Source: Lama glama
Taxonomy: Eukaryota
DNA: 64,000 nucleotides
Assembly (NCBI GenBank): GCA_028534125.1
Contig: CM052816.1
Coordinates: 16,556,001 to 16,620,000, forward strand
Direction of reading: 5' to 3'
The notes beneath the pieces are model-generated. The model was given only the letters and a program-made list of their open reading frames with translations. It did no database searches and was not told the DNA's origin. Of the stretch, positions 522 to 60,575 are shown in pieces. Each line of letters opens with the position of its first letter. Position 1 is the stretch's first letter. Position numbers and translations under genes: made by a program.

Positions 522-880
522 AGCTTTTGTTTTTCAATTGAGATATGATTCATGTAGCTTAATACTCAATACTTTAAAACATACAATTGAGTGGTTTTTA
601 ATATGTTCACAAAGTTGTGCAACCATCACCACAATCTAACACAAGAACATTTTCATCATCCCAGAAAGAAACCCTGTGTCCATTAGCAGGCACTCCTCAT
701 TTCCCACTCAACCTCTCTCAGGCCACCGCTAATCAACTTTCTGTCTCTATAGATTTGCCTATTCTGGATATTTGTATCAAGGGAATCGTATAATGTGTGG
801 TCTTTTGTGACTGGTTTCTTTCACTTAGCATAAGTATTTTTAAGGTTCATCTCTACTGTAGCCAGAATCAGTACTTCCAT
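522..880 (-). mobile_element. Old L1 (L1MB-like) 3' end
   Basis: Resembles the reverse complement of the L1MB 3'UTR (gttgtgcaaccatcaccacaatct...ctttctgtctctatagatttgcctattctgga...ctttcacttagcat). Confidence 0.85.
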
Positions 881-5129: not shown

Positions 5130-5517
5130 TCTTTTCTGTTCCTCAAACCTTCCAAGCCTGTTTTCATTTCAGGGCTGTTCCCACTGTTTGGGACACTTTT
5201 CCTTCAGATGTTCACACGGTTGTCTCCTTCTCATCGTTCAGGCCTCAGCTCAAATTTCACTTTTCCAGAGAGACTTTTTAGGAGCTACCCAATCTAAACC
5301 AGTTGTCCAATCAGTATGTTTTCATCTTAGCACTTACTAGCATCAGAAATCACGTTTGTATTTGTGTTTACTTGTTCATTGTCTATGTTTCTCAGGAGAA
5401 TATAAGTTTCATGTGAGTAAGAATTGTGTCTGACTCCCTCACCGCTGTATCCCTACCAACTGGCACAGAGCCTAGCACATAGTAGGTGCTCAATAAATGG
5501 TGAGTGAGTAAATGAAT
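5130..5517 (+). mobile_element. L2 3' end
   Basis: Ends ...gcacatagtaggtgctcaataaatggtgagtgagtaaatgaat. Confidence 0.85.
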
Positions 5518-13959: not shown

Positions 13960-14425
13960 TTATTCCATCATTCATTCACCCAAAAATATGTACTAAATAC
14001 CAACTCTGTGCCAAGCACAGGGTATAGTAATAAACAAGATAGACAAGCTCTCTGCTCTTTCAGTTTCATTTTAGTGTGGGAAGCAGACAATAAACAAGGA
14101 ATAAATCAGCAAGATAAGATCAGTTAGTAATAAGTGCTGTGAAGACAGTAAGAGGGTGATGTGATAAGAGTGCTTGGACCTCTAGTCGGGGGAAGGCTGC
14201 TCTGCAAAGCTGACATTCATGCTGAAACCAGAAGCATGGGAAGGAATCTGCTTTGCAAAGTGCTGGGGGAAAGCCTTCTAATCATTGGGAACAACAGGAG
14301 CAAAGGCCCCAAGGCAGGAAAAGACTGCAGTTATTTGATGGACAAAAAGGAGACAAGTGTGACTGAAGCATAGTGAGCAAGAGGGAGAATAACTGGAGCT
14401 GAGGTTGGAGAACTGAATAAAGGTT
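13960..14425 (-). mobile_element. L2 3' region
   Basis: cattcattcacccaaaaatatgtactaaatacc...gcaaaggccccaaggcagga. Confidence 0.8.
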
Positions 14426-22745: not shown

Positions 22746-23634
22746 TCTGCCAAGTACAGCCTCTCACCGTGTCACATCAGTGTGGAAACCACCAGTCACT
22801 TTGGCCCTTGTTAGGCATCCCTGACCAGGGCTGCCTCATATTAACCAACAAAAATCAAGGAATCTCAATCAAATGTTCTCTGGTATTTGGCAGGGCACTT
22901 AAGAGGTTATTCTGTCATCTCCTTCCCTCCACACATGGAGATCAGTAACAGGGCAGAGACCAGTCAGCCCAGGAAAGGCCATCAGCCAAGCAGAGGCCCT
23001 CTGGCCTCAGCTGCCACCAGAATAGGTTCTCTCCTATTCAGCCCTGCCTCAGTTCCTCTGCTGCAGTCCTGTTCCTTGTCCCATCCATGGACTCTTTCCA
23101 GCAGGAAAGCTGGGTCCCTCTTGGTAATCTACCATTAAACTTCAGCTTGCTTCCACTTCCCTCCTCCTTTGCCCAGAGATAATCCTTTTTTCTGTGCTCC
23201 CATCCCTTCAGAGCACGTGGAGAGCACAGGGGAAGACTGAGACCCTTCTCTGAACCTCACACTCCCACCCTAGACCTTGGTTGCCCCAGGAAGCAGCAGG
23301 CAGGGGGAGGCCTGTCTCAGACTGAAGACAAGACAGCTGCTCATTAGGGAAGCTGAGAACTGAAGGAGGTGACTAATGGTGTCAGGAGCAGAGCCCAGCA
23401 TGAGCAGAGAAGTGAGCAACAGCATCAGAACTGACTGTCGGAGAAAAAGGAGAGGAGAGAAGAGTCAGTGCACAGAGCAGGCAGGGCTCTCACTCCCAGA
23501 GGATTCTCAGGATAAAACAAAACCAGCCTGACCTCTCCTCCCAGGAGCTGTCATCTTAGAAAAAAGGATTACTCTTGTAATCAGCTGTCACCTTGTGTGG
23601 GGCAAGGAGTGGTGGGGACATAGACACAGCCAAG

Positions 23635-24130
23635 GATGTTTGATTCCATTTCACAAACATCTCCTGAGTGCTTACTACATACTGGGGGCCAGCGGTGAAT
23701 CAGACAAACATAATCCCTACCCTCATGGAGCCTGCTTCCAGATGCATTTAAAATGCAAACTCCCTATTCTGGTCCACAAAGCCACACTTGGTCTGGTCCT
23801 CGACCTCCTCTTTACCTGCATTTTGTGCTCCTCTTCCCTTTCTCATGCCACAAGGCCTTCCTGAACATGCCAAGTTTCTTCCTGCCTCAGAGCTCTTGCA
23901 TCAGCTGGCAGTTCCCTCTACCTGGAACATTCTTCTCCCAGATCTTCTGTTCCACGGCTGCCTCCTTCCGGGCATTTAGGTCTCTGCCAAGGGAATTTCC
24001 TAGCAGGGAAAAGCACTCCAGGTGGTGGAGAAAGCTTGTCCAACAGTCTTGAGATGGGAAATAGTTAAAGAGTTGAAAGGAAACCAGCATGGTTGGGATA
24101 AAGCGGGCAAAGGGGAGTCTGAGCTCCCCT
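23635..24130. mobile_element. Cluster of L2 fragments in both orientations
   Basis: Antisense tail (cacaaacatctcctgagtgcttact), a sense body (ttcctgaacatgccaag...cctggaacattctt), then another antisense piece. Confidence 0.6.
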
Positions 24131-46677: not shown

Positions 46678-47743
46678 CTCTTGGCTCTACCTCTCAGATG
46701 GGAGGGGAATGTTAAGAGAAGAAAAAAAATTAGGAGGGGATGCAACAAGCAGCTTCATCCAAAGGAAAAGAAAAATGGAGCTTTCCCAATGTGGAAATCC
46801 AAAGCTAGGCCTCTGAGGAGTCCTCTGATCTCGGACTATAAATGTCAGAGCAGTGTCTAAGCGGCTCTGCATGGAGGAGTCTGGGGAAAATAACCAACCC
46901 TGAACTTTTGCATTTTGCCCAGAGCAGGAAAAGATAATGGAACAACGGTTTCAGGTAATTTATCTCCTGCTCAGCTTTTCTGAGCTACCTTTCCCTCCAG
47001 CTGGGCACCCCCTGAGACTCCTATCCCTCCTTTCCATCTCCCCAGCCCTCTGGCCACTCCCTGTGTCTTATGTCTTTTCCCTTCATGCGCTGAATGAGAA
47101 CTATTTCAAACCGTTTCTTAAGCAGACCAGCAATGAGTGAGGCCCTACTCCATGTGGAGTAAGAGAAAGAAGCCCATCATAACGTAGAACTGTAACCTGT
47201 AATGGGGCAGCCTCTCTTCATATCCACCCCTCTTTCCCCACCCAGGCCACACCAGTTCACAGTGCTGCCACAGAGAAAGAGAGGAGCCACTCTTTCCCTG
47301 ACCTTTTATACTGCTCCTGAATGGCAGACGAGCAAAGTTAAAAAAAAAAAAAAAAAAAAGAACAAAATAATTTAGGCTTCTAACCAACTTGTAAGTTTCC
47401 TGAGGGCCAGTACTGATCTATAGCTTTTTCTCCTTTTATATCCACCATACTAGATACCTGTCATACTGGCTGCCTAATGAACATCTGATAAATTGAACTG
47501 CTGAAGGGAGTGCCCAGAAGCAAGAAACTAATGAGTCTGTTTCCAAACTGGAACCACAACAGAGACCAAGAAATAAGTCCTCCCTGAAATGATTATGAAA
47601 GAATCCCCATCCTGCTGCCTTTGAGCCCAGGCACTGCCATCTTGGTCCATTCATTCACACAAGAATTTATAGCACACCTGCTCTGTGTGGACCCTAGATC
47701 TTAACAGTCTAGAAGGGAGGAACAGATATAAAACAAGTAAACA

Positions 47744-47999
47744 GTGAGAAGGGACAAATTGGCAGTTTGAGATTTGCAGGTACTAACTACTATATATAGA
47801 ACAGATAAACAACAAGTTTATACTGTATAGCACAGGGAATTATATTCAATATCCTATAGTAACCAATAATGAAAAATATGAAAACGAATATGTATGTATA
47901 TGTAAGACTGGCCTATTATGCTATACATCAGAAACTGGCAGATTTTAACCTAACTATATTTCAAGAAAAAATTAATTAATTAAATAAATAAAATAAAGT
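47744..47999 (+). mobile_element. 5'-truncated lineage-specific (cetartiodactyl/camelid-type) L1 3' end
   Basis: gaagggacaaattggcagtttgagatttgcagg...aaacaacaagtttatactgtatagcacagggaattatattcaata... with an A-rich tail. TSD aagtaaaca at 47735-47743 and 48000-48008. Confidence 0.92.
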
Positions 48000-49256
48000 A
48001 AGTAAACATGTATTTCAGGTGATGCTAATTGTCTTGGGGAAAAAAAGTAGTGTAAAGGGGTTAGGGATGGTGGGAACAGGAGTCAAGAAAAGCCAGCTTG
48101 AGGAGGTAGCATGTGAGCAGACACCTGAAGGCAGTGAAGGAGCTAGACCTGCTATCAGGAAGAGTGTTCCACGCAGAGAGAAAAGCAACGCAAGAGCTCT
48201 GAGGTGGGGGCATTTTGCAAGGAGTCCAGCATGGCTGCAGTGGAATAAACAAGGGGGAGAGAGATAGGAGATGAGGTCAGAGAGAAACTGGTGCTCAAAT
48301 TATATAGGGCCTTACAGACCACAATAAGGATGTTAGGAAGATGGCAGAGTGTAGGACCATGAGCTTGTCTCTCCTCGTGACTACAACGAAACCACAACTG
48401 AATGCTAAACAACCACCGAAAAAAGACTGGAACCTAGCAAGAAAGGTCTTCTGCAACTTAAAGAGGGAACCACAGCAGGACAGTTGGAGGGGTGTGCTCA
48501 TGATATAACTGGGCTCCATACCCCTCCTGTGGGCGACCCACAAGCTGAAGATTTATTAAGTCACAGAGGCCCTCCCATAGGAGTAAGGACTCTAAACCCC
48601 ACATCAGGCTCCCCAGCTCAGGTTCCGGCACTGGGAAGAGAAGAAGACCCCAGGACCTCTGGTTTTGAAGGCCAGAGGAGCTTGGCTCTGGGAGCCTCAT
48701 GGGACTGAAGAAAACAGAGACTCCATTTGCTTGGGAAGCGTACACGGAAAGTCACGTGCACCAGGTCCAAGGGCAGAGGCAGTAATTCCACAGGAACCTG
48801 GGCCATACCTGTCTGCTGGATTTGGAGGGTCTCCTGGGGACGTCAGGGATGGCTGCAGCTCACTCAGGGGATATAAAAGCTGGTGGCGGACATTCCAGGA
48901 GTATTAATCTACATGAGCTTTTCTGGAGGCTGACATCTTGATTGGATCATTAGTACCAAGACCTAGCCCCACCCAACAGCCTGTAGGGAAGCCTCAGGCC
49001 AAACAACATACAGGGTGGGAACACAGCCCTACCCATCATCAGACTTCCTAAGCCACAAAGGTAGACACAGCCCTACCCACCAGAGGTCCAGGACGAAGCT
49101 TCTCCCGTAAGTGGTCAGGCACCAACTCCTCCTGCCAGGAAACCTGCATAAGCCTCTAGTCCAGCCTCATTCACCAGGGGTAGATACTAGAAAAAAGAAA
49201 ATAATAATCCCAAAGCCTGTGGAAGGAATCCACAAACACACAGAAAGATAGACACT

Positions 49257-50138
49257 ACGAGGCGGCAGAGGAATATCTCCCAGGCCAAGGCACAAGATAA
49301 AATCCCAGAAGAAATAAGTGATGAGATAGGCAATTTATCTGAGAAAGAGTTTAAAGTAATGATGGCCAAGATGTTTAGAGAACTCAAGAGGAGTATAGAT
49401 GCACAGAGAGAAGTTTTCAGCAAAGAGTTGGAAAATATAAAGAATACTCAGAGTTGAAGAATAAAATCACTGAAATGAACAATACACTAGAAGGAACCAA
49501 AGATAAACTAAATGAGACAGAAGAACAGATCAGTGAGCTAGAAGACAGATTAGTGGAAATCACTACTTCAGAATAGAAAAAAGAAAAAAGAATGAAAAGA
49601 AATGAGGATAGGTTACTAGAACTCTGGGATAACATGAAGCACACTAATCTTTGCATTATAGGGGTCTGAGAAAGAGAAGAGAGAGAGAAAGGAGCTGAGA
49701 AAATTTTTGGAGAGATAATCACTGAAAACTTCCCCAGCTTGGGAAAGGAAACAGTCACCCAAGTTCAGGAAGTGCAGAGTACCACACAGGATCAACCCAA
49801 AGAGGAACACACCAAGGCACATAGTCATCAAATTGACAACTATTAAGGATAAGGAGAAAATATTAAAATTACCAAGAGAAAAACAACAAATAACATACAA
49901 GGGGACTCCCATAAGGTTATTAGCCGATTCTTCAGCAGAAACTCTATGGGCCAGAAGAGAGTGGCAAGATACATTTAAAGTGATGAAAGGGAGAAACTTA
50001 CAACCAAGAATACTCTATCCAGCAAGGCTCTAGTTCAGACTTGATGGAGAAATCAAAAGCTTCACAGATAAACAAAAGCTAAAAGATTTCAGCACCACCA
50101 AACCAGCTTTATAACAAATGTTAAAGGACCTTCTCTAG
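49257..50138 (+). pseudogene. Disrupted L1 ORF1p (RNA-binding chaperone)
   Basis: ACG at the expected start position. N-terminus RRQRNISQAKAQDKIPEE..EIGNLSEKEFKVM, C-terminal ITYKGTPIRLLADSSAETLWARREW...LQPRILYPARL...TTKPAL. Several stops and frameshifts. Confidence 0.93.
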
Positions 50139-50197
50139 TCATCAAACCATAAGAAAAGAGAAGAAAAAGAAAAGTAAAAAAAGAGAGACCTACAAAA

Positions 50198-50698
50198 GAT
50201 TGCTTTGGCTGTTTGGTGTCATTTGCGGTTTCTTATAAATTTTGGAATTGTTCTAGTTCTGTGAGGAATATCGTGAGCATTTTGACAGAGGTGGTGTTGG
50301 ATCTGTGTATTGCTTTGGGTAGTGTGGCCATTTTGATAGTGTTGATTCCTCTAATCCAAGAGCACAAGAAATCTTTCCATTCCTTTGTGTCATTTTGGTT
50401 TTCAGAGTATAGGTAACCTCCTTGGTTAAGTTTACTTCTAGGTATTTTGTTGTTTTTGATGTAATGGAAATGTCTCTGCCAGTTATAAAATTCTGGTTTT
50501 TGAAGTGAAAAAAAAACAAACAAACCAGTGAATGAAGGGCCACAAATGGCAAAATACCCTTCTTTTTTTATGGATGAGTTGTATCTGCATCTTCATTCTC
50601 TATTCAACTATTGATGTGCACTTAGGATGCTTCCATATCTTGGCAATTATAAATAATGTTGCTGTTAACAGCAGGGTGTATGTATCTTTTTGAATTAA
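50198..50698 (-). mobile_element. Two antisense L1 ORF2 fragments inside the composite element
   Basis: 50198-~50472 encodes on minus ..DTKEWKDFLCSWIRGINTIKMATLPKAIHR..FLTELEQ (post-RT ORF2). ~50537-50698 is the antisense ORF2 C-terminal region. Confidence 0.85.
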
Positions 50699-50811
50699 TT
50701 CTTATTTTGTGGTTAGTTTTATTCCTTTGATAACTATGTAAGTTTAAAAAGCTAAAGCGCTAAACATTCTTAGAAACAATGAACAGTACATGTATGTAAA
50801 TTAAAAAATAT

Positions 50812-51340
50812 ATGTGCAGTAAAAAAAAAAAGATCAAGCCATGGAAGACATGGAAGAAACTTAAAAGACATATTACTAAATGAAAGAAGCCAGTCTGAAA
50901 AGGCTACAAACTATATGATTCCGACCAAATGACATTCTGGAAATCGCACAGCTACAGAAACAAGAAAAAGATCGTGGTTTCCAGGGGTTTGGGGAGAGGG
51001 AGGGAGGGATGAACAGATGGAGCACAAGGGATTTTTAGGGCAATGAAATAATTCTGTATGATACTAGAGTGGTGGCTACATGTCATTATGCATTTGTCAA
51101 AGCCCACAGAATGTACAACATCAAGAGTGAACCCTGATGTAAACTATGGACTTTGGTTGATAATAACATGTCCATGTTGGTTCATCAATTGTAACAAATA
51201 CGCCACAGTGATGAGGGATGTTGAGGATAGGGAAGTATATATGTGTGGGTGGGGAGGGCTATGTGCGAACTCTCTGTATTTTCTGCTCAGTTTTGCTGTG
51301 AACCTGAAACTGCTCTAAAAGAATAAAGTCTATTAAAAAA
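50812..51340 (+). mobile_element. Old L1MC1-like 3' end forming the tail of the composite element
   Basis: aagccatggaagacatggaagaaac...gtgaaccctgatgtaaactatggactttgg...ttttgctgtgaacctgaaactgctctaaaagaataaagtctatt. Confidence 0.85.
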
Positions 51341-51482
51341 AATAAGGATGTTAGATGAGTGAGAAAGAAGTGATTAGAAAGCTCTGCACAGAGGAGTGAG
51401 AAGTCCTGATTTTACAGAACTACTCTGGATGCTGTGTTCAGAACAACCTGTAGAGCAGAAGCAGGAAAACCACTTAGAAGGC

Positions 51483-51966
51483 TGTGGCAGAGCCCATTCA
51501 TTTTCCCACAAATTCAGTCTCTCTCCATTTTAGCTGGGCAAAAGGCTGCTCAGAAAAGGGACTACATTTCTCAAGCCCCCTTGCAGCTAAGCATGGCCTT
51601 GTGACAAAACGTTGGCTGATGGGATGAGCAGAATGGATATTTGTAATTTTCAGGTTATGTTCTTAAAGGAAAGGGACTGCTATCCACTTCTTCCTTCTCC
51701 CTTTTCCATGGGCTGGAATCTTACGGACTCAACAGCGTTGGAGCAGCTATATTAGGCCATAAGATGGAAGTTGTATGTTGAAGGACAGAGCAGCAAGCCA
51801 TGCATGAGAAGCTAAGATCCCTGATACTGTGGAGTGACTGTATCAATCCCAGACCACCTATACACAAGTTCATACTTGAGAAAGAAGTAATCTTCTATCT
51901 TGAAAATAAAACATTGTATCTTGGAGACTCTGATACAGCAGCCTAATGTGTAATGTAACCAATCTA
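51483..51966 (+). mobile_element. MaLR solo LTR (MLT1J-like)
   Basis: tgtggcaga...gactacatttctcaagcccccttgcagctaagcatggccttgtgac... Confidence 0.8.
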
Positions 51967-53738
51967 GAGGTGCCTGCAATTGCCTAGGCAAGTGATGACA
52001 GTGGCTCTAATGAGGGCGGGCAGGGTGTAACTGAGATAAGTGACCAGAATCTGGAGATAATCTAAAGGGTAGGACTGACAGCATTTTCTGAGGAATTGGA
52101 TAAGGAGACATTAAAGAAAGAGAAGATCCAGGAATGACCCCAAGGTTTGGGACTTAATAGAAGAGAGATGCAATTATTGCAGTGGAGAAGACAGTGACTC
52201 TGAGTGGACTCTGAGCGACATTCACATGGAGATGTCAAGTAGCAGCTGGATCTGAGTCTAAAGTTCAGGAGAGATATAGGGGCTGAAGATATCCATTTGG
52301 GATTTATCAGTATATAGCTGACTTTATCCTGAGATAGATGGGATTACCTAGGGAGCGAGAGTAGATAAGAATACAGGTGCAGTGACAGTCCTAGGGGCTC
52401 ACAGATGGGGGAAATGAGGAGCCAGCACAGGAGACAGCAGAGGTAGGAGGAGAAATAAGAGAGGAGTGTCTGGGAAGCCAGACAAAGAGGATGTTTTCAG
52501 AAGAAATGAGTGACCATCTGTGTCAAATGTTGCTGCTAGGATAAGTAAGAGGAGGACTAAGAGATAACTGCTGAAATGAGAAGCCATTGGTGACACTGAC
52601 AAGAGAATTTTCAATGGAGCACTGAGGACAAGGGAGACTGAGAAGAGAGGAAGTGGAGACAACCCTGAATTCCTGGCAGGTAGAAATCACTCCAGCAATC
52701 TGACTCCCACCCTTCCTATCCCAGTTCCAAGCATTCTGAAGGACAGGAGGGTACCCAGCAACTCTTCCCCACGTGTCTGCATGACCCTGCCATCTCCCCT
52801 CTCCCAGCTTCCTGGGGCCTCCGTGCAGCTCTGCCTCTGCCCTACTGGCTCCCAAGGCCACTCTCAAGGATTGCTTGGGCAGGCCAGGCAGCCAGGCCTG
52901 ACACTTCTGGATCATAATTAGTGCTGCTGTTAACGATGTTTGGCCCCTGTGGAACAGCAGCTTGGGAAATTCTGATACTTACAATTTTCCCCCTCAGTGC
53001 TTTCTGGGATGCAATTTCTCAGCCAGTGCCCGTGCTCCAGCCCTGGGCCCTCACTGCCTCCCCACCAGGGAGAATTAAGGCAGTGCCTCAGATGCCATTC
53101 TAGAGGGCCTAATCAGTTAGCTAAAGTCATCTCCTGGCCATTATCACAGCACTGTCATATTAACCCAGGCACAGCTTTAGGGGAGGCAGGGAGGAAGAGG
53201 TGGGGGCACGAAGCCAGCTCCACAAAGCATTCTTAGTGCTGTGACCAGAAAACTTAGAGAAAAAAAGGAGCCCTCCTGGAAGAGTTCTGGAATTTCTAGC
53301 AGAGATGCGGCTCAACCATCCACTTTTCCCTGATAAGGAGTCTCTCTGGTGCTCCTTTGTCTAGGGAGAGAGCCTCAGCAGTCAGAGACCTGGGCACTGC
53401 CCTGTAGCCCGGCATCCTGAGGCTGGACCTGGGCAAGTCTGAACCCAGATCTCCTCTGCCCCAGCAGCTTCCAGTCCTGGCCTCTTACCCTGGGAAGTGC
53501 TCAGTTCATAGCTGTGTCCTGATCTCCCAGGTCTGGGGACTTTAATTCATTGCCCTGATGGGCTTCTAGCTCTCTAGGACAGGAGGCTGTGGTGGGCCCC
53601 ATGCCTCAGGGTCTTGGAGGAGAGCAGCCTTGGGTTAAGGGCACTGGGACTGACAGGACCTTGGCTTCTACTACAGGGGATAAAGACAGAAACCAGCATC
53701 TACAAAGCACTTGGTACATGGGAGACCAATGTAAAGTC

Positions 53739-57966: not shown

Positions 57967-60059
57967 ATCTATACACTGAAATGTCCTCATTTTAAGAGGT
58001 CATTCTATCCATCTCCATCAACAAACAGCTTGGAATAAGGTATCTCTCCTGGTTGGCAAACATCTCTAGGGAAGAGGAAACATTACAACTCATGTATCCT
58101 CTCAGTGTTTCAGAGCTGCAGAGATGGACCCCATAAGCCTCCTAAAGAATCTAGTGAAAGCCCCCCCATCAGAAAGCCCTCACCCTGTCCTTCTCTCTTC
58201 CCCCAAAAGGTAATGGCTCAAATGAGTCAGTCAAACCCAAGATCTAAATCCATCAATGCCACCACCTCTTCCCACCAGTACATCCTACCCTTGATTTTTC
58301 ATCTGCTGCTAGTGGAGGCAGTGCTAGAGGAAGGGAGCATGAAGGGGCAGATAGGGTCAGATGTATTTCTGAAATGCCAGCACATTCAATTTGTTGGGTA
58401 TTTTGCATGAATTTCCTCTTGAGTTCACAGGCTCCTAACTCAGCAGAATTAAAATGGAATGAAGTAATTAGAGCAGCGGGCTGTGAGGATGTTCTGGACC
58501 TGGCATCACAGGAAATGTGGGGCAAGGGGAAAAGAAAAAGAGAAGAGAGCCTTGAAGAGAGGGCTAGGCAAGAGACCCATTCCAAGGGTCAGTTCCTCGG
58601 GAAAGCCTCCCCCATCCACCCTAGTCCCTGGGTCAGCAGCTCTCTCCACAGCTTTGCTTTCTAAGAATCTATCCTGGTCTGATCCCTCACAATCAAGCTC
58701 CAACCTCCCTTTCTAGTCCCCTTTTCAGACACTTCCACCACACGTACCTTACCTTAACTCATACGAAACTCATCATTCCCCCTCACTCCACAGTTGTTCA
58801 TGTCTTTGTACATGCATTTATTACACTGTACTGAAATATTTGCTTTCCTATCTGACTCTCCCACAAGACCAGTGGCTCCCCAACCTCTGGATTTCATACA
58901 TGCATTGCATCCCAGTCACTAAGCAAAATGCCAACTCACAACAAGATTTTTTCTGTTTCGTCCCCAAACCGATTCCTAAATTAGTTCAAACCCATAAGCC
59001 CTAAATTACAAACAGGATGATGCAGTCTTGGTATAATGCAGTAGTCTGAGTTTAGGTGCTAATGTTTTGTTGATCGAAGAAGTATGAATGGCTAAGTGAT
59101 ATGATTAAAGGGATTGGTGGGTGGGTTATTTGTGCCTGACCATGGAAACCTGAATGCCTGGTTAACTTTAATAAAAGCTAATGACCACATTCCATTATCC
59201 CTTAAAAGATAGAGCCAGAGGCTCCTCACTCTGAGGCAGACCATTCCTGTTTCTCTAGATTTTCTTGTTACACTTGCTGGATCTCTCTGTAGAGGATCTC
59301 TGACTGTCTTGGGACCAAAGACCCTCCATTTCCCTTCTTTCTGCACGTAGGTGGGGTTGGAAGTGGCATAAGAGCCTGCTTTTGTCTCAGTCATGACTGG
59401 TAAGTCCATGTTCTCTGCGTAGGTCCACTTCTTTGGATGAAAAAGGCCTTCTCCTAGTGCCACTGTTGGAATGAGGAAATTAAACTCTAACCAGTAAATT
59501 TCCCTCACAGACACAATTTTTGAGACATAACAAAAGATTACCGAGTTTTCATTTTGCTAAGTAAGTAAACTTAAAACAAAAAAACTACCATAATAAAAAG
59601 GAAAAAAGGAAAAGAAAAAAATCCAACAATCTACTATCATCTTTTCAGTAAAGTGTGAAGATCTGAATAATAATCTCACATTAAAGAGAAGTTTTATTAG
59701 TACATTTTTAGCCTTATTTAAAGACTCATTACATTGTTCTTGTTTTTTCTCATTTCACTATGGTGATGAAATGGACCAGTGAATACTCTAGTATGGAGTT
59801 TGGGAATAACTAAGCCAGAGCTTCTCTGAGCAGGGAATGGTTTTTATTCATTTGTATTTTCCCAAGACCTAACTCAGAGCCTGGTTTATGATAAATGCCG
59901 ATCACATTTTTGTGGAGTAAAAGAAGAGAAGAATGGAGAAAGGAAAGAATTCCTCAGTTGAGGACCATGATAGGAGACAGATGTCAAGCCCTAACATACG
60001 TGGGACCCTGCAGCAAACTGTCACCACCCCAACTCTTCTCTGGAACCTTTTCATAAAGC

Positions 60060-60575
60060 AACGAGTGCTTACCCTACTCCTTCTTTAACAGCCTTCAGTA
60101 GCTCCCTCTTGCCTATGTGTTCAAGTCCAAACTTTCCGGCATAATACATCAGTCCCTTCACAACTGATATCCAACTTCCATTTCTAGTCCTCTTTTCAGA
60201 TATTCCTGCAAGATGGCCCTTACCTCTACTCATACAAAACTCATCATTCTCTGCATTAACCATGGCCCTTTGTGTCTTTGTAATTTCTGTTCCCTCTATC
60301 TGGAATCTGCTTTTTCCCCCGTTTCAGATTGGCCAATTCTCAACTCACCCTTTAAGAAGATCCATCCAGCTTAAGTGCCTCTTTCCCTCCCTCCTTCATG
60401 TTAGGTGTTCCCTCCTCTGAGATCACGTTACCTGTATAGTAGCAATTACCAACTTGGATTGTGATTATTTCTATGCCTGTCTCCCCCACTGTGCTTCTTG
60501 GAGGACAGGGACCATAATGTCCCATTCTCACATTTCCAGTGTCTGGCACTGTTTGTGAATAAACGAATGAATGGG
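60060..60575 (+). mobile_element. L2 3' region
   Basis: ...gcctgtctccccc...ggacagggacca...gtctggcac...gaataaacgaatgaatg. Confidence 0.75.

What the first reader, a model, noticed from the sequence alone, without database searches (positions are those of the whole stretch)
48323..51354. TSD-bounded ORF1-only chimeric retroelement: candidate half-L1 (HAL1-like) family or complex L1 transduction
Seen: one perfect 14-bp TSD (aataaggatgttag) brackets 3004 bp. The contents are an intact-looking L1 5' end (gaagatggc), a ~0.9-kb 5'UTR and a decayed ORF1 (49257-50138). Where ORF2 should follow there are antisense ORF2 scraps, ~110 bp of AT-rich unique DNA, and an older L1MC1-like 3' end supplying AATAAA and the A-tail. 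The host L2 resumes after the TSD, and I see no internal TSD or polyA for the young part. Established: HAL1 elements encode ORF1p only, borrow ORF2p in trans, and arose independently several times in mammals. Standard twin-priming inversions lose the 5' end, which is retained here. Inference: the whole unit moved as one RNA. It is either a copy of a lineage-specific non-autonomous ORF1-only family that captured a genomic mosaic as its 3'UTR, or a one-off retrocopy of a rearranged source locus.
Basis: partly seen in the sequence, partly recalled or inferred. Interest (0 to 1): 0.78.

Follow-up and report, generated by a model that had tools for sequence, protein, structure and literature searches.

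The report
Dead half-LINE-1 retrotransposon copy, patchwork tail
This 3-kb stretch is a decayed copy of a jumping gene that kept only the first LINE-1 gene and picked up a patchwork of older LINE-1 debris as its tail; a second, separately aged copy with the same patchwork suggests a family, which is a known way of life (half-L1) that seems to have arisen again in this lineage.

Summary
A perfect 14-bp duplication brackets 3004 bp inside an old repeat that is continuous across the site. Inside: L1 5'UTR, full-length but dead ORF1, a break in the spacer just before ORF2, two out-of-order antisense ORF2 scraps, unique DNA and an old L1M-type 3' end. New evidence: one unnamed database protein (P0001) reads across the same spacer/scrap junction, linker and internal deletion at 115 of 142 residues (about 8-12% DNA divergence), far above camel-alpaca divergence (2.5%). 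Both copies share 13 of 50 decayed ORF2 positions, so the patchwork existed before they parted. Best reading (0.75): a copy of an ORF1-only HAL1-type family in a probably camelid genome. Its head is of the same lineage as pig HAL1_SSc (3016 bp), but its tail differs, which points to a separate origin. Not shown: copy number, a second copy bearing the L1M tail, selection on ORF1, absence from Dfam/Repbase. This scan noted the same architecture before in another genome (e1-7856012, unchecked). New member of a known kind; modest interest.

The parts
48323..48336 (+). 5' target-site duplication (14 bp)
   Evidence: cut site reads 5'-TATT/GT on the bottom strand, a variant of the YYYY/RR site described in PMC4859970
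48337..49256 (+). L1 5'UTR, nearly full length, cetartiodactyl L1A-type
   Evidence: GC 0.50-0.54; homologous by eye to the heads of pig L1A1 and HAL1_SSc, whose 5'UTRs are 941 and 944 bp
49257..50138 (+). ORF1, 294 codons, dead in this copy (ACG at the start, 2 frameshifts, 4 premature stops)
   Evidence: C-terminal half up to 81% identical to database ORF1 proteins
50139..50197 (+). Inter-ORF spacer remnant; ends about 8 codons before where ORF2 starts in relatives (junction J1, 2-nt overlap)
   Evidence: P0210 and P0213 continue into ORF2 here; pig L1A1 spacer is 68 bp; P0001 crosses the same junction
50196..50472 (-). Antisense ORF2 scrap A (region after the RT domain) with an internal deletion; already decayed when captured
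   Evidence: deletion and 13 derived residues shared with P0001
50473..50539 (.). A-rich linker between the scraps
   Evidence: present in P0001
50540..50698 (-). Antisense ORF2 scrap B (ORF2 3' end); order relative to A is not that of one inverted L1
   Evidence: and by-eye comparison with pig L1A1; its edge to 50583 is covered by P0001
50699..50831 (+). AT-rich unique DNA with ATTAAA (50800) and A11 (50821-50831): possible earlier 3' end
50832..51340 (+). Old L1M-type 3' end (last ORF2 codons plus 3'UTR), AATAAA at 51322, six-A tail
   Evidence: the subfamily name L1MC1 is recalled, not tested
51341..51354 (+). 3' target-site duplication (14 bp)

Best explanation
A dead copy of a non-autonomous, ORF1-only LINE-1 derivative (HAL1 way of life). 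Inferred history: a cetartiodactyl L1A-type element lost everything from just before ORF2 onward and became joined to genomic DNA littered with old L1 debris. Transcription from the L1 5'UTR ran through ORF1 and the debris to a polyA signal (first perhaps ATTAAA/A11 at 50800-50831, then or always the AATAAA of the old L1M end). The RNA made its own ORF1p, borrowed ORF2p from full L1s, and was inserted by target-primed reverse transcription into an old repeat, leaving the 14-bp duplication. Shown: anatomy, TSD, continuous host, a second copy of 50146-50583, decay of scrap A before the copies parted. Inferred: trans use of ORF2p, need for ORF1p, many copies, camelid host.
For: TSD and continuous host. 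No sense ORF2: the break lies in the spacer; 0 of 120 listed ORF1 relatives cross it into the mosaic. P0001 crosses J1, scrap A, its deletion, the linker and enters scrap B; it is the only one of 150 listed hits with those junction motifs. 115 of 142 aligned residues identical; simulation fits 8-12% DNA divergence, and 0 of 500 runs at 4% fell that low, whereas alpaca and wild camel differ by 4,720 substitutions in ~190 kb, 2.5% (PMC6726744 Table 3): not a camelid orthologue. Of 50 conserved ORF2 columns, 13 are changed alike in both copies, 6 in the window only, 0 in P0001 only, 1 in both differently. The scrap departs from ORF2 at 20 of 50 columns, ORF1 from its relatives at 17 of 112 (Fisher p 0.001): scraps older than the head. 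A perfect 14-mer pair survives with probability 0.05-0.24 at 5-10% decay per copy but 0.002-0.011 at 15-20%, so the TSD is not that of the old tail. Precedent: pig HAL1_SSc has the same head lineage and size.
Against: Only one other copy was found, known as protein only, with no flanks, organism or TSD. No second copy across 50700 or 50835 (6 candidates, 0 scored). No copy in viral, prokaryote-genome, metagenome, phage or plasmid collections, which hold little mammalian DNA. Copy number was not measured. The A-tail is only 6 bases and the cut site is a variant. Selection on ORF1 untested.
Confidence: 0.75

Rival explanations
1. A rearranged source locus that threw off only a handful of retrocopies, like a processed pseudogene driven by an L1 promoter; ORF1 is a passenger and there is no self-propagating family.
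For: Only two copies are in hand; no copy number; ORF1 dead here.
Confidence: 0.14
2. A single old insertion; P0001 is its orthologue in a slowly evolving distant cetartiodactyl, or a segmental (DNA-level) duplicate.
For: P0001 has no organism or flanks; a divergence of 12% is not excluded (8% of runs exceeded the observed identity); nearest named ORF1 relatives are from pig and narwhal.
Against: At 15% divergence 0 of 500 runs exceeded the observed identity; P0001 has 0 private changes in 50 conserved columns; no ENA host-type hits carry the junctions although such hits dominate the ORF1 list.
Confidence: 0.08
3. Nested or inversion artefact: an old L1MC piece sat here first and a younger L1 landed at its edge, or twin priming inverted part of one L1.
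For: An A11 run lies just before the old tail; antisense ORF2 is typical of twin priming (PMC4859970).
Against: No duplication of the 5' flank follows the A11 run (only 2 matches); the perfect TSD encloses the tail and is too clean for the tail's age; the 5' end is in sense; scraps are out of order and were decayed before capture; the same junctions exist in a second copy.
Confidence: 0.03

Closest known systems
HAL1_SSc (pig; L1A6 in PMC6501411)
   Same: ORF1-only, 3016 bp against 3004 here; 5'UTR 944 and ORF1 906 bp against about 920 and 882; head homologous by eye to the window's.
   Different: Its 3' third, read by eye in the supplement, is a long spacer, AT-rich DNA and an artiodactyl-type L1 3' end; it shows no antisense ORF2 scraps and no L1M-type end. 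Not the same family. No tool alignment was made.
HAL1 class (Smit 1999; Bao and Jurka 2010, seen only as cited in PMC5753468, PMC5786205, PMC3627910)
   Same: Non-autonomous L1 derivative encoding ORF1p only; described as arising independently several times in mammals.
   Different: No camelid member is named in the passages and supplement rows read; the tail here is a mosaic of old L1 debris rather than the parent's own 3' end. Maintained ORF1 coding, reported for guinea-pig HAL1, is untested here.
L1 3' transduction (PMC4859970)
   Same: Read-through to a downstream polyA signal; two A-runs inside one TSD pair (A11 at 50821 and the terminal run).
   Different: The element has no ORF2 and lacks its parent's 3'UTR; the source-locus TSD cannot be identified.
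Camelid Repbase L1s L1-1_Vpa, L1-2_Vpa, L1-3_Vpa
   Same: Probable host lineage; a likely source of ORF2p in trans (inference).

Membership tests
HAL1 (half-L1) | L1 5'UTR and full-length ORF1 retained | tested here: met
   ORF1 is decayed in this copy
HAL1 (half-L1) | No ORF2 in sense | tested here: met
   break in the spacer before the ORF2 start; only antisense scraps and the last few codons of an old ORF2 in the tail
HAL1 (half-L1) | L1-type insertion marks: TSD, polyA signal and tail, endonuclease-type site | tested here: met
   14-bp TSD, AATAAA at 51322, six-A tail, TATT/GT variant site
HAL1 (half-L1) | Many interspersed copies sharing the structure, each with its own TSD | tested here: inconclusive
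   one further copy covering 50146-50583; none across the tail junctions; no genome held; copy number unmeasured
HAL1 (half-L1) | ORF1 kept under purifying selection in the family | not testable with these tools
   needs many DNA copies
HAL1_SSc (pig) | Same 3' region as the consensus | tested here: not met
   by-eye comparison with the supplement sequence
Catalogued Dfam/Repbase camelid consensus | Match to a deposited consensus | not testable with these tools
   no Dfam or Repbase library; Zoonomia curation deposited 8263 models in Dfam, supplements not seen
Twin-priming inversion | 5' part inverted, one block, same age as the rest | tested here: not met
   5' end in sense; two out-of-order scraps, older than the head
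3' transduction | Two A-runs and the source TSD inside the insertion | tested here: inconclusive
   ATTAAA plus A11 at 50800-50831; may instead be an expanded A-rich stretch of the old L1; source TSD not identifiable

The most novel reading that the evidence does not exclude
An uncatalogued camelid-specific HAL1 family born from the same cetartiodactyl L1A head as pig HAL1_SSc but independently, converging on 3.0 kb, and built in two steps: a 2.5-kb form ending at ATTAAA/A11, then a 3.0-kb form that took over a far older L1M 3' end by read-through. The pig-camelid pair would be a natural replicate for asking why this L1 head breeds ORF1-only parasites, whether cis ORF1p is selected, and whether any polyadenylated tail suffices.
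Probability: 0.3. Interest if true: 0.5.

Novelty: new member of a known kind. Interest (0 to 1): 0.33.

Why it matters
HAL1 elements are the natural evidence that ORF1p made in cis helps an RNA hijack ORF2p. A further independent origin, with a tail made of unrelated old debris, would support the view that L1 machinery needs a polyA tail but not the parent's 3'UTR. Practically, repeat annotators would split each copy into four or five fragments of different apparent age, which distorts repeat landscapes in this lineage. The mechanism class is known and this copy is dead, so the gain is mostly for transposon curation.

Tried and rejected
No assembly is held for this window, so no genome-wide BLAST. 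No read-depth data were obtained, so copy number and insertion-site diversity stay open. Junction patterns: 0 matches in viral contigs, 0 in prokaryote genomes, 1 in metagenomes that is a bare 21-mer with no other similarity, i.e. chance. P0001 found no locus in viral (9 candidates, 0 confirmed) or genome contigs (89 candidates, 0 confirmed). Tail region: no match in plasmids or phages; protein search across the two 3' junctions, 6 candidates, 0 scored. ESM Atlas gave only generic hits with a recognition value below the reliable range. Weak Pfam hits of P0001 and P0002 (E 0.07-0.08, below cut-off) are chance; neither scrap B nor the tail hit Pfam. Top-scoring ORF1 hits P0151-P0154 owe their score to internal duplication, not to crossing the junction. 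No second family copy in the window. Look-ups of earlier findings by sequence, place and other words gave nothing. Bao and Jurka 2010 is not held. Rejected: twin priming, simple nesting, identity with pig HAL1_SSc, P0001 as a real protein-coding gene (it is a chance frame over debris) or as a camelid orthologue.

Full report
Observation. The 14-mer occurs exactly twice in the window, at 48323 and 51341; 0.05 matches were expected and 0 of 100 shuffles gave two. The repeat is exactly 14 bp and encloses 3004 bp. The flanks, joined, align across the join to another old repeat at 23597-23990 (nhmmer E 9.4e-9; blastn reached only into the TSD), so the host repeat is continuous; its name, L2, is recalled. 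The cut site reads TATT/GT, keeping the pyrimidine/purine step that PMC4859970 (passages) calls nearly universal. AATAAA lies at 51322 and six A's precede the second TSD.

Anatomy. 48337-49256 is GC-rich and homologous by eye to the 5'UTR of pig L1A1 and HAL1_SSc (PMC6501411 supplement 1, part 1 of 56). ORF1 spans 49257-50138, hits PF02994 and PF17490 above cut-off, and is dead: ACG at the start, two frameshifts, four premature stops. The sense L1 stops in the spacer at 50197; relatives P0210 and P0213 run on from there into ORF2 about eight codons later, and 0 of the 120 listed ORF1 hits (of 3641) cross into the mosaic. Then come antisense scrap A (50196-50472, ORF2 after RT, with an internal deletion), a linker, antisense scrap B (50540-50698, the ORF2 end), AT-rich DNA, and an old L1 3' end that is 62% identical over 268 nt to another old L1 piece at 586-851. 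On the minus strand B precedes A, the reverse of their order in L1 (by eye against pig L1A1). It may be an earlier 3' end or an expanded A-rich stretch of the old L1.

Host. Not given. Twenty of 24 listed runs, under three organism labels and 10 studies, hold 0.67-0.71 of the words of 47400-52400 and have about 2.0-2.15 Gb of contigs. Flanks are 39% of that stretch, so about half or more of the element's words are held too, which implies the insertion is shared by the three; one run may be the window's source and nothing was laid. The window shows no young high-copy SINE (one repeated pair in the self-comparison), camelid SINEs are nearly all MIR (PMC8605555 table), a neighbouring L1 3' end resembles the pig type by eye, and named ORF1 relatives among the hits are from pig, narwhal and, for an internally duplicated protein, a bat. 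A camelid is inferred.

A second copy. Searching with the antisense frame over 50233-50589 returned one protein among 5.8 billion, P0001 (E 1.6e-44), also the top of 2054 hits among 1.84 billion representatives. It is unnamed, from a 1027-bp NCBI contig. A frameshift-aware alignment runs from 50583 to 50146, through scrap B's edge, the linker, scrap A with its deletion, junction J1 and the spacer, at 115 of 142 residues. It is the only one of the 150 listed hits with these junction motifs; that library keeps one protein per 50% cluster. Simulation puts the DNA divergence at about 8-12%: 0 of 500 runs at 4% and 2 of 500 at 5% fell that low, and 0 of 500 at 15% rose above it. Alpaca and wild camel differ by 4,720 substitutions over ~190 kb (PMC6726744, section 14), so P0001 is not a camelid orthologue. 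Of 50 ORF2 columns conserved among the other 149 hits, both copies keep 30, share a change at 13, the window alone differs at 6, P0001 alone at 0, and both differ at 1 (columns with under 40 rows or under 60% agreement were left out). The scrap thus decayed before the two copies parted, and it is further from its relatives (20 of 50) than ORF1's C-terminal half is from its own (17 of 112; p 0.001; different protein regions, so a rough test). Against the reading: P0001 has no flanks or organism, could be a DNA-level duplicate, and does not reach the tail; a search across the two 3' junctions scored none of 6 candidates. Copy number was not measured.

Mechanism. Shown: one insertion event with L1 marks; no sense ORF2; a pre-formed, pre-decayed mosaic present in at least two sequences. 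Inferred: an L1A-type element was cut before ORF2 and joined to debris-rich genomic DNA; its promoter drove an RNA ending at a borrowed polyA signal; ORF1p came in cis and ORF2p in trans, as proposed for HAL1 (PMC3627910 and PMC5786205 passages; PMC4859970 notes that 3'-truncated ORF1 RNAs can be mobilised). A perfect TSD pair has a 5-24% chance at 5-10% decay per copy but 0.2-1% at 15-20%, so the duplication dates from the young unit, not from the old tail. I give the family reading 0.75, a low-copy source 0.14, a single insertion with an orthologue or duplicate 0.08, and nesting or twin priming 0.03.

Comparison with what is known. It works like HAL1, a class that arose several times in mammals (PMC5753468 passage; the primary paper is not held). 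Three structural criteria are met; multi-copy status is inconclusive and selection on ORF1 untestable, so membership is probable, not proven. The closest entry seen is pig HAL1_SSc: 3016 bp, 5'UTR 944, ORF1 906, same head lineage but a different 3' third (by eye). Five paper searches and term searches in camelid papers (PMC8605555, PMC6675863, PMC6726744, PMC10362595, PMC12849490; passages; supplement rows, of which only the first few places were shown) turned up no camelid-specific HAL1; in the casein table all 6 HAL1 entries are short hits to tree-shrew or bat consensuses. PMC3183009 and PMC13756887 (passages) list HAL1 in other mammals only. The library lacks most subscription papers, and Repbase, Dfam and the supplements of the Zoonomia preprint (passages only) could not be seen; a deposited consensus may well exist.

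Verdict. A real feature, correctly read in the main: most likely a dead copy of a lineage-specific half-L1 family with a patchwork tail. New member of a known kind; interest 0.33.

Noticed in passing
window 47735-48008: [quoted passage not shown]
   Followed up: partly
window 586-851 (-): Another old L1M-type 3' fragment, 62% identical over 268 nt to the element's tail.
   Followed up: partly
window 23597-23990 (-), 14164-14411 (+), 5169-5283 (-): Old repeats related to the host repeat around the insertion (nhmmer E 9e-9 to 0.004), probably L2 pieces (name recalled).
   Followed up: partly
window 58699-58778 and 60170-60249: The only repeated pair at E below 1e-6 in the filtered self-comparison, 80% over 80 bp; not identified.
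   Followed up: no
window 47337-47359: A long pure A-run (about 21) 1 kb upstream, with no element identified in front of it.
   Followed up: no
window ~1140-1790: A stretch that by eye looks like a solo LTR; recalled resemblance only.
   Followed up: no
L001 4001-4021: Chance 21-mer match in a metagenome contig with no further similarity to the window.
   Followed up: yes
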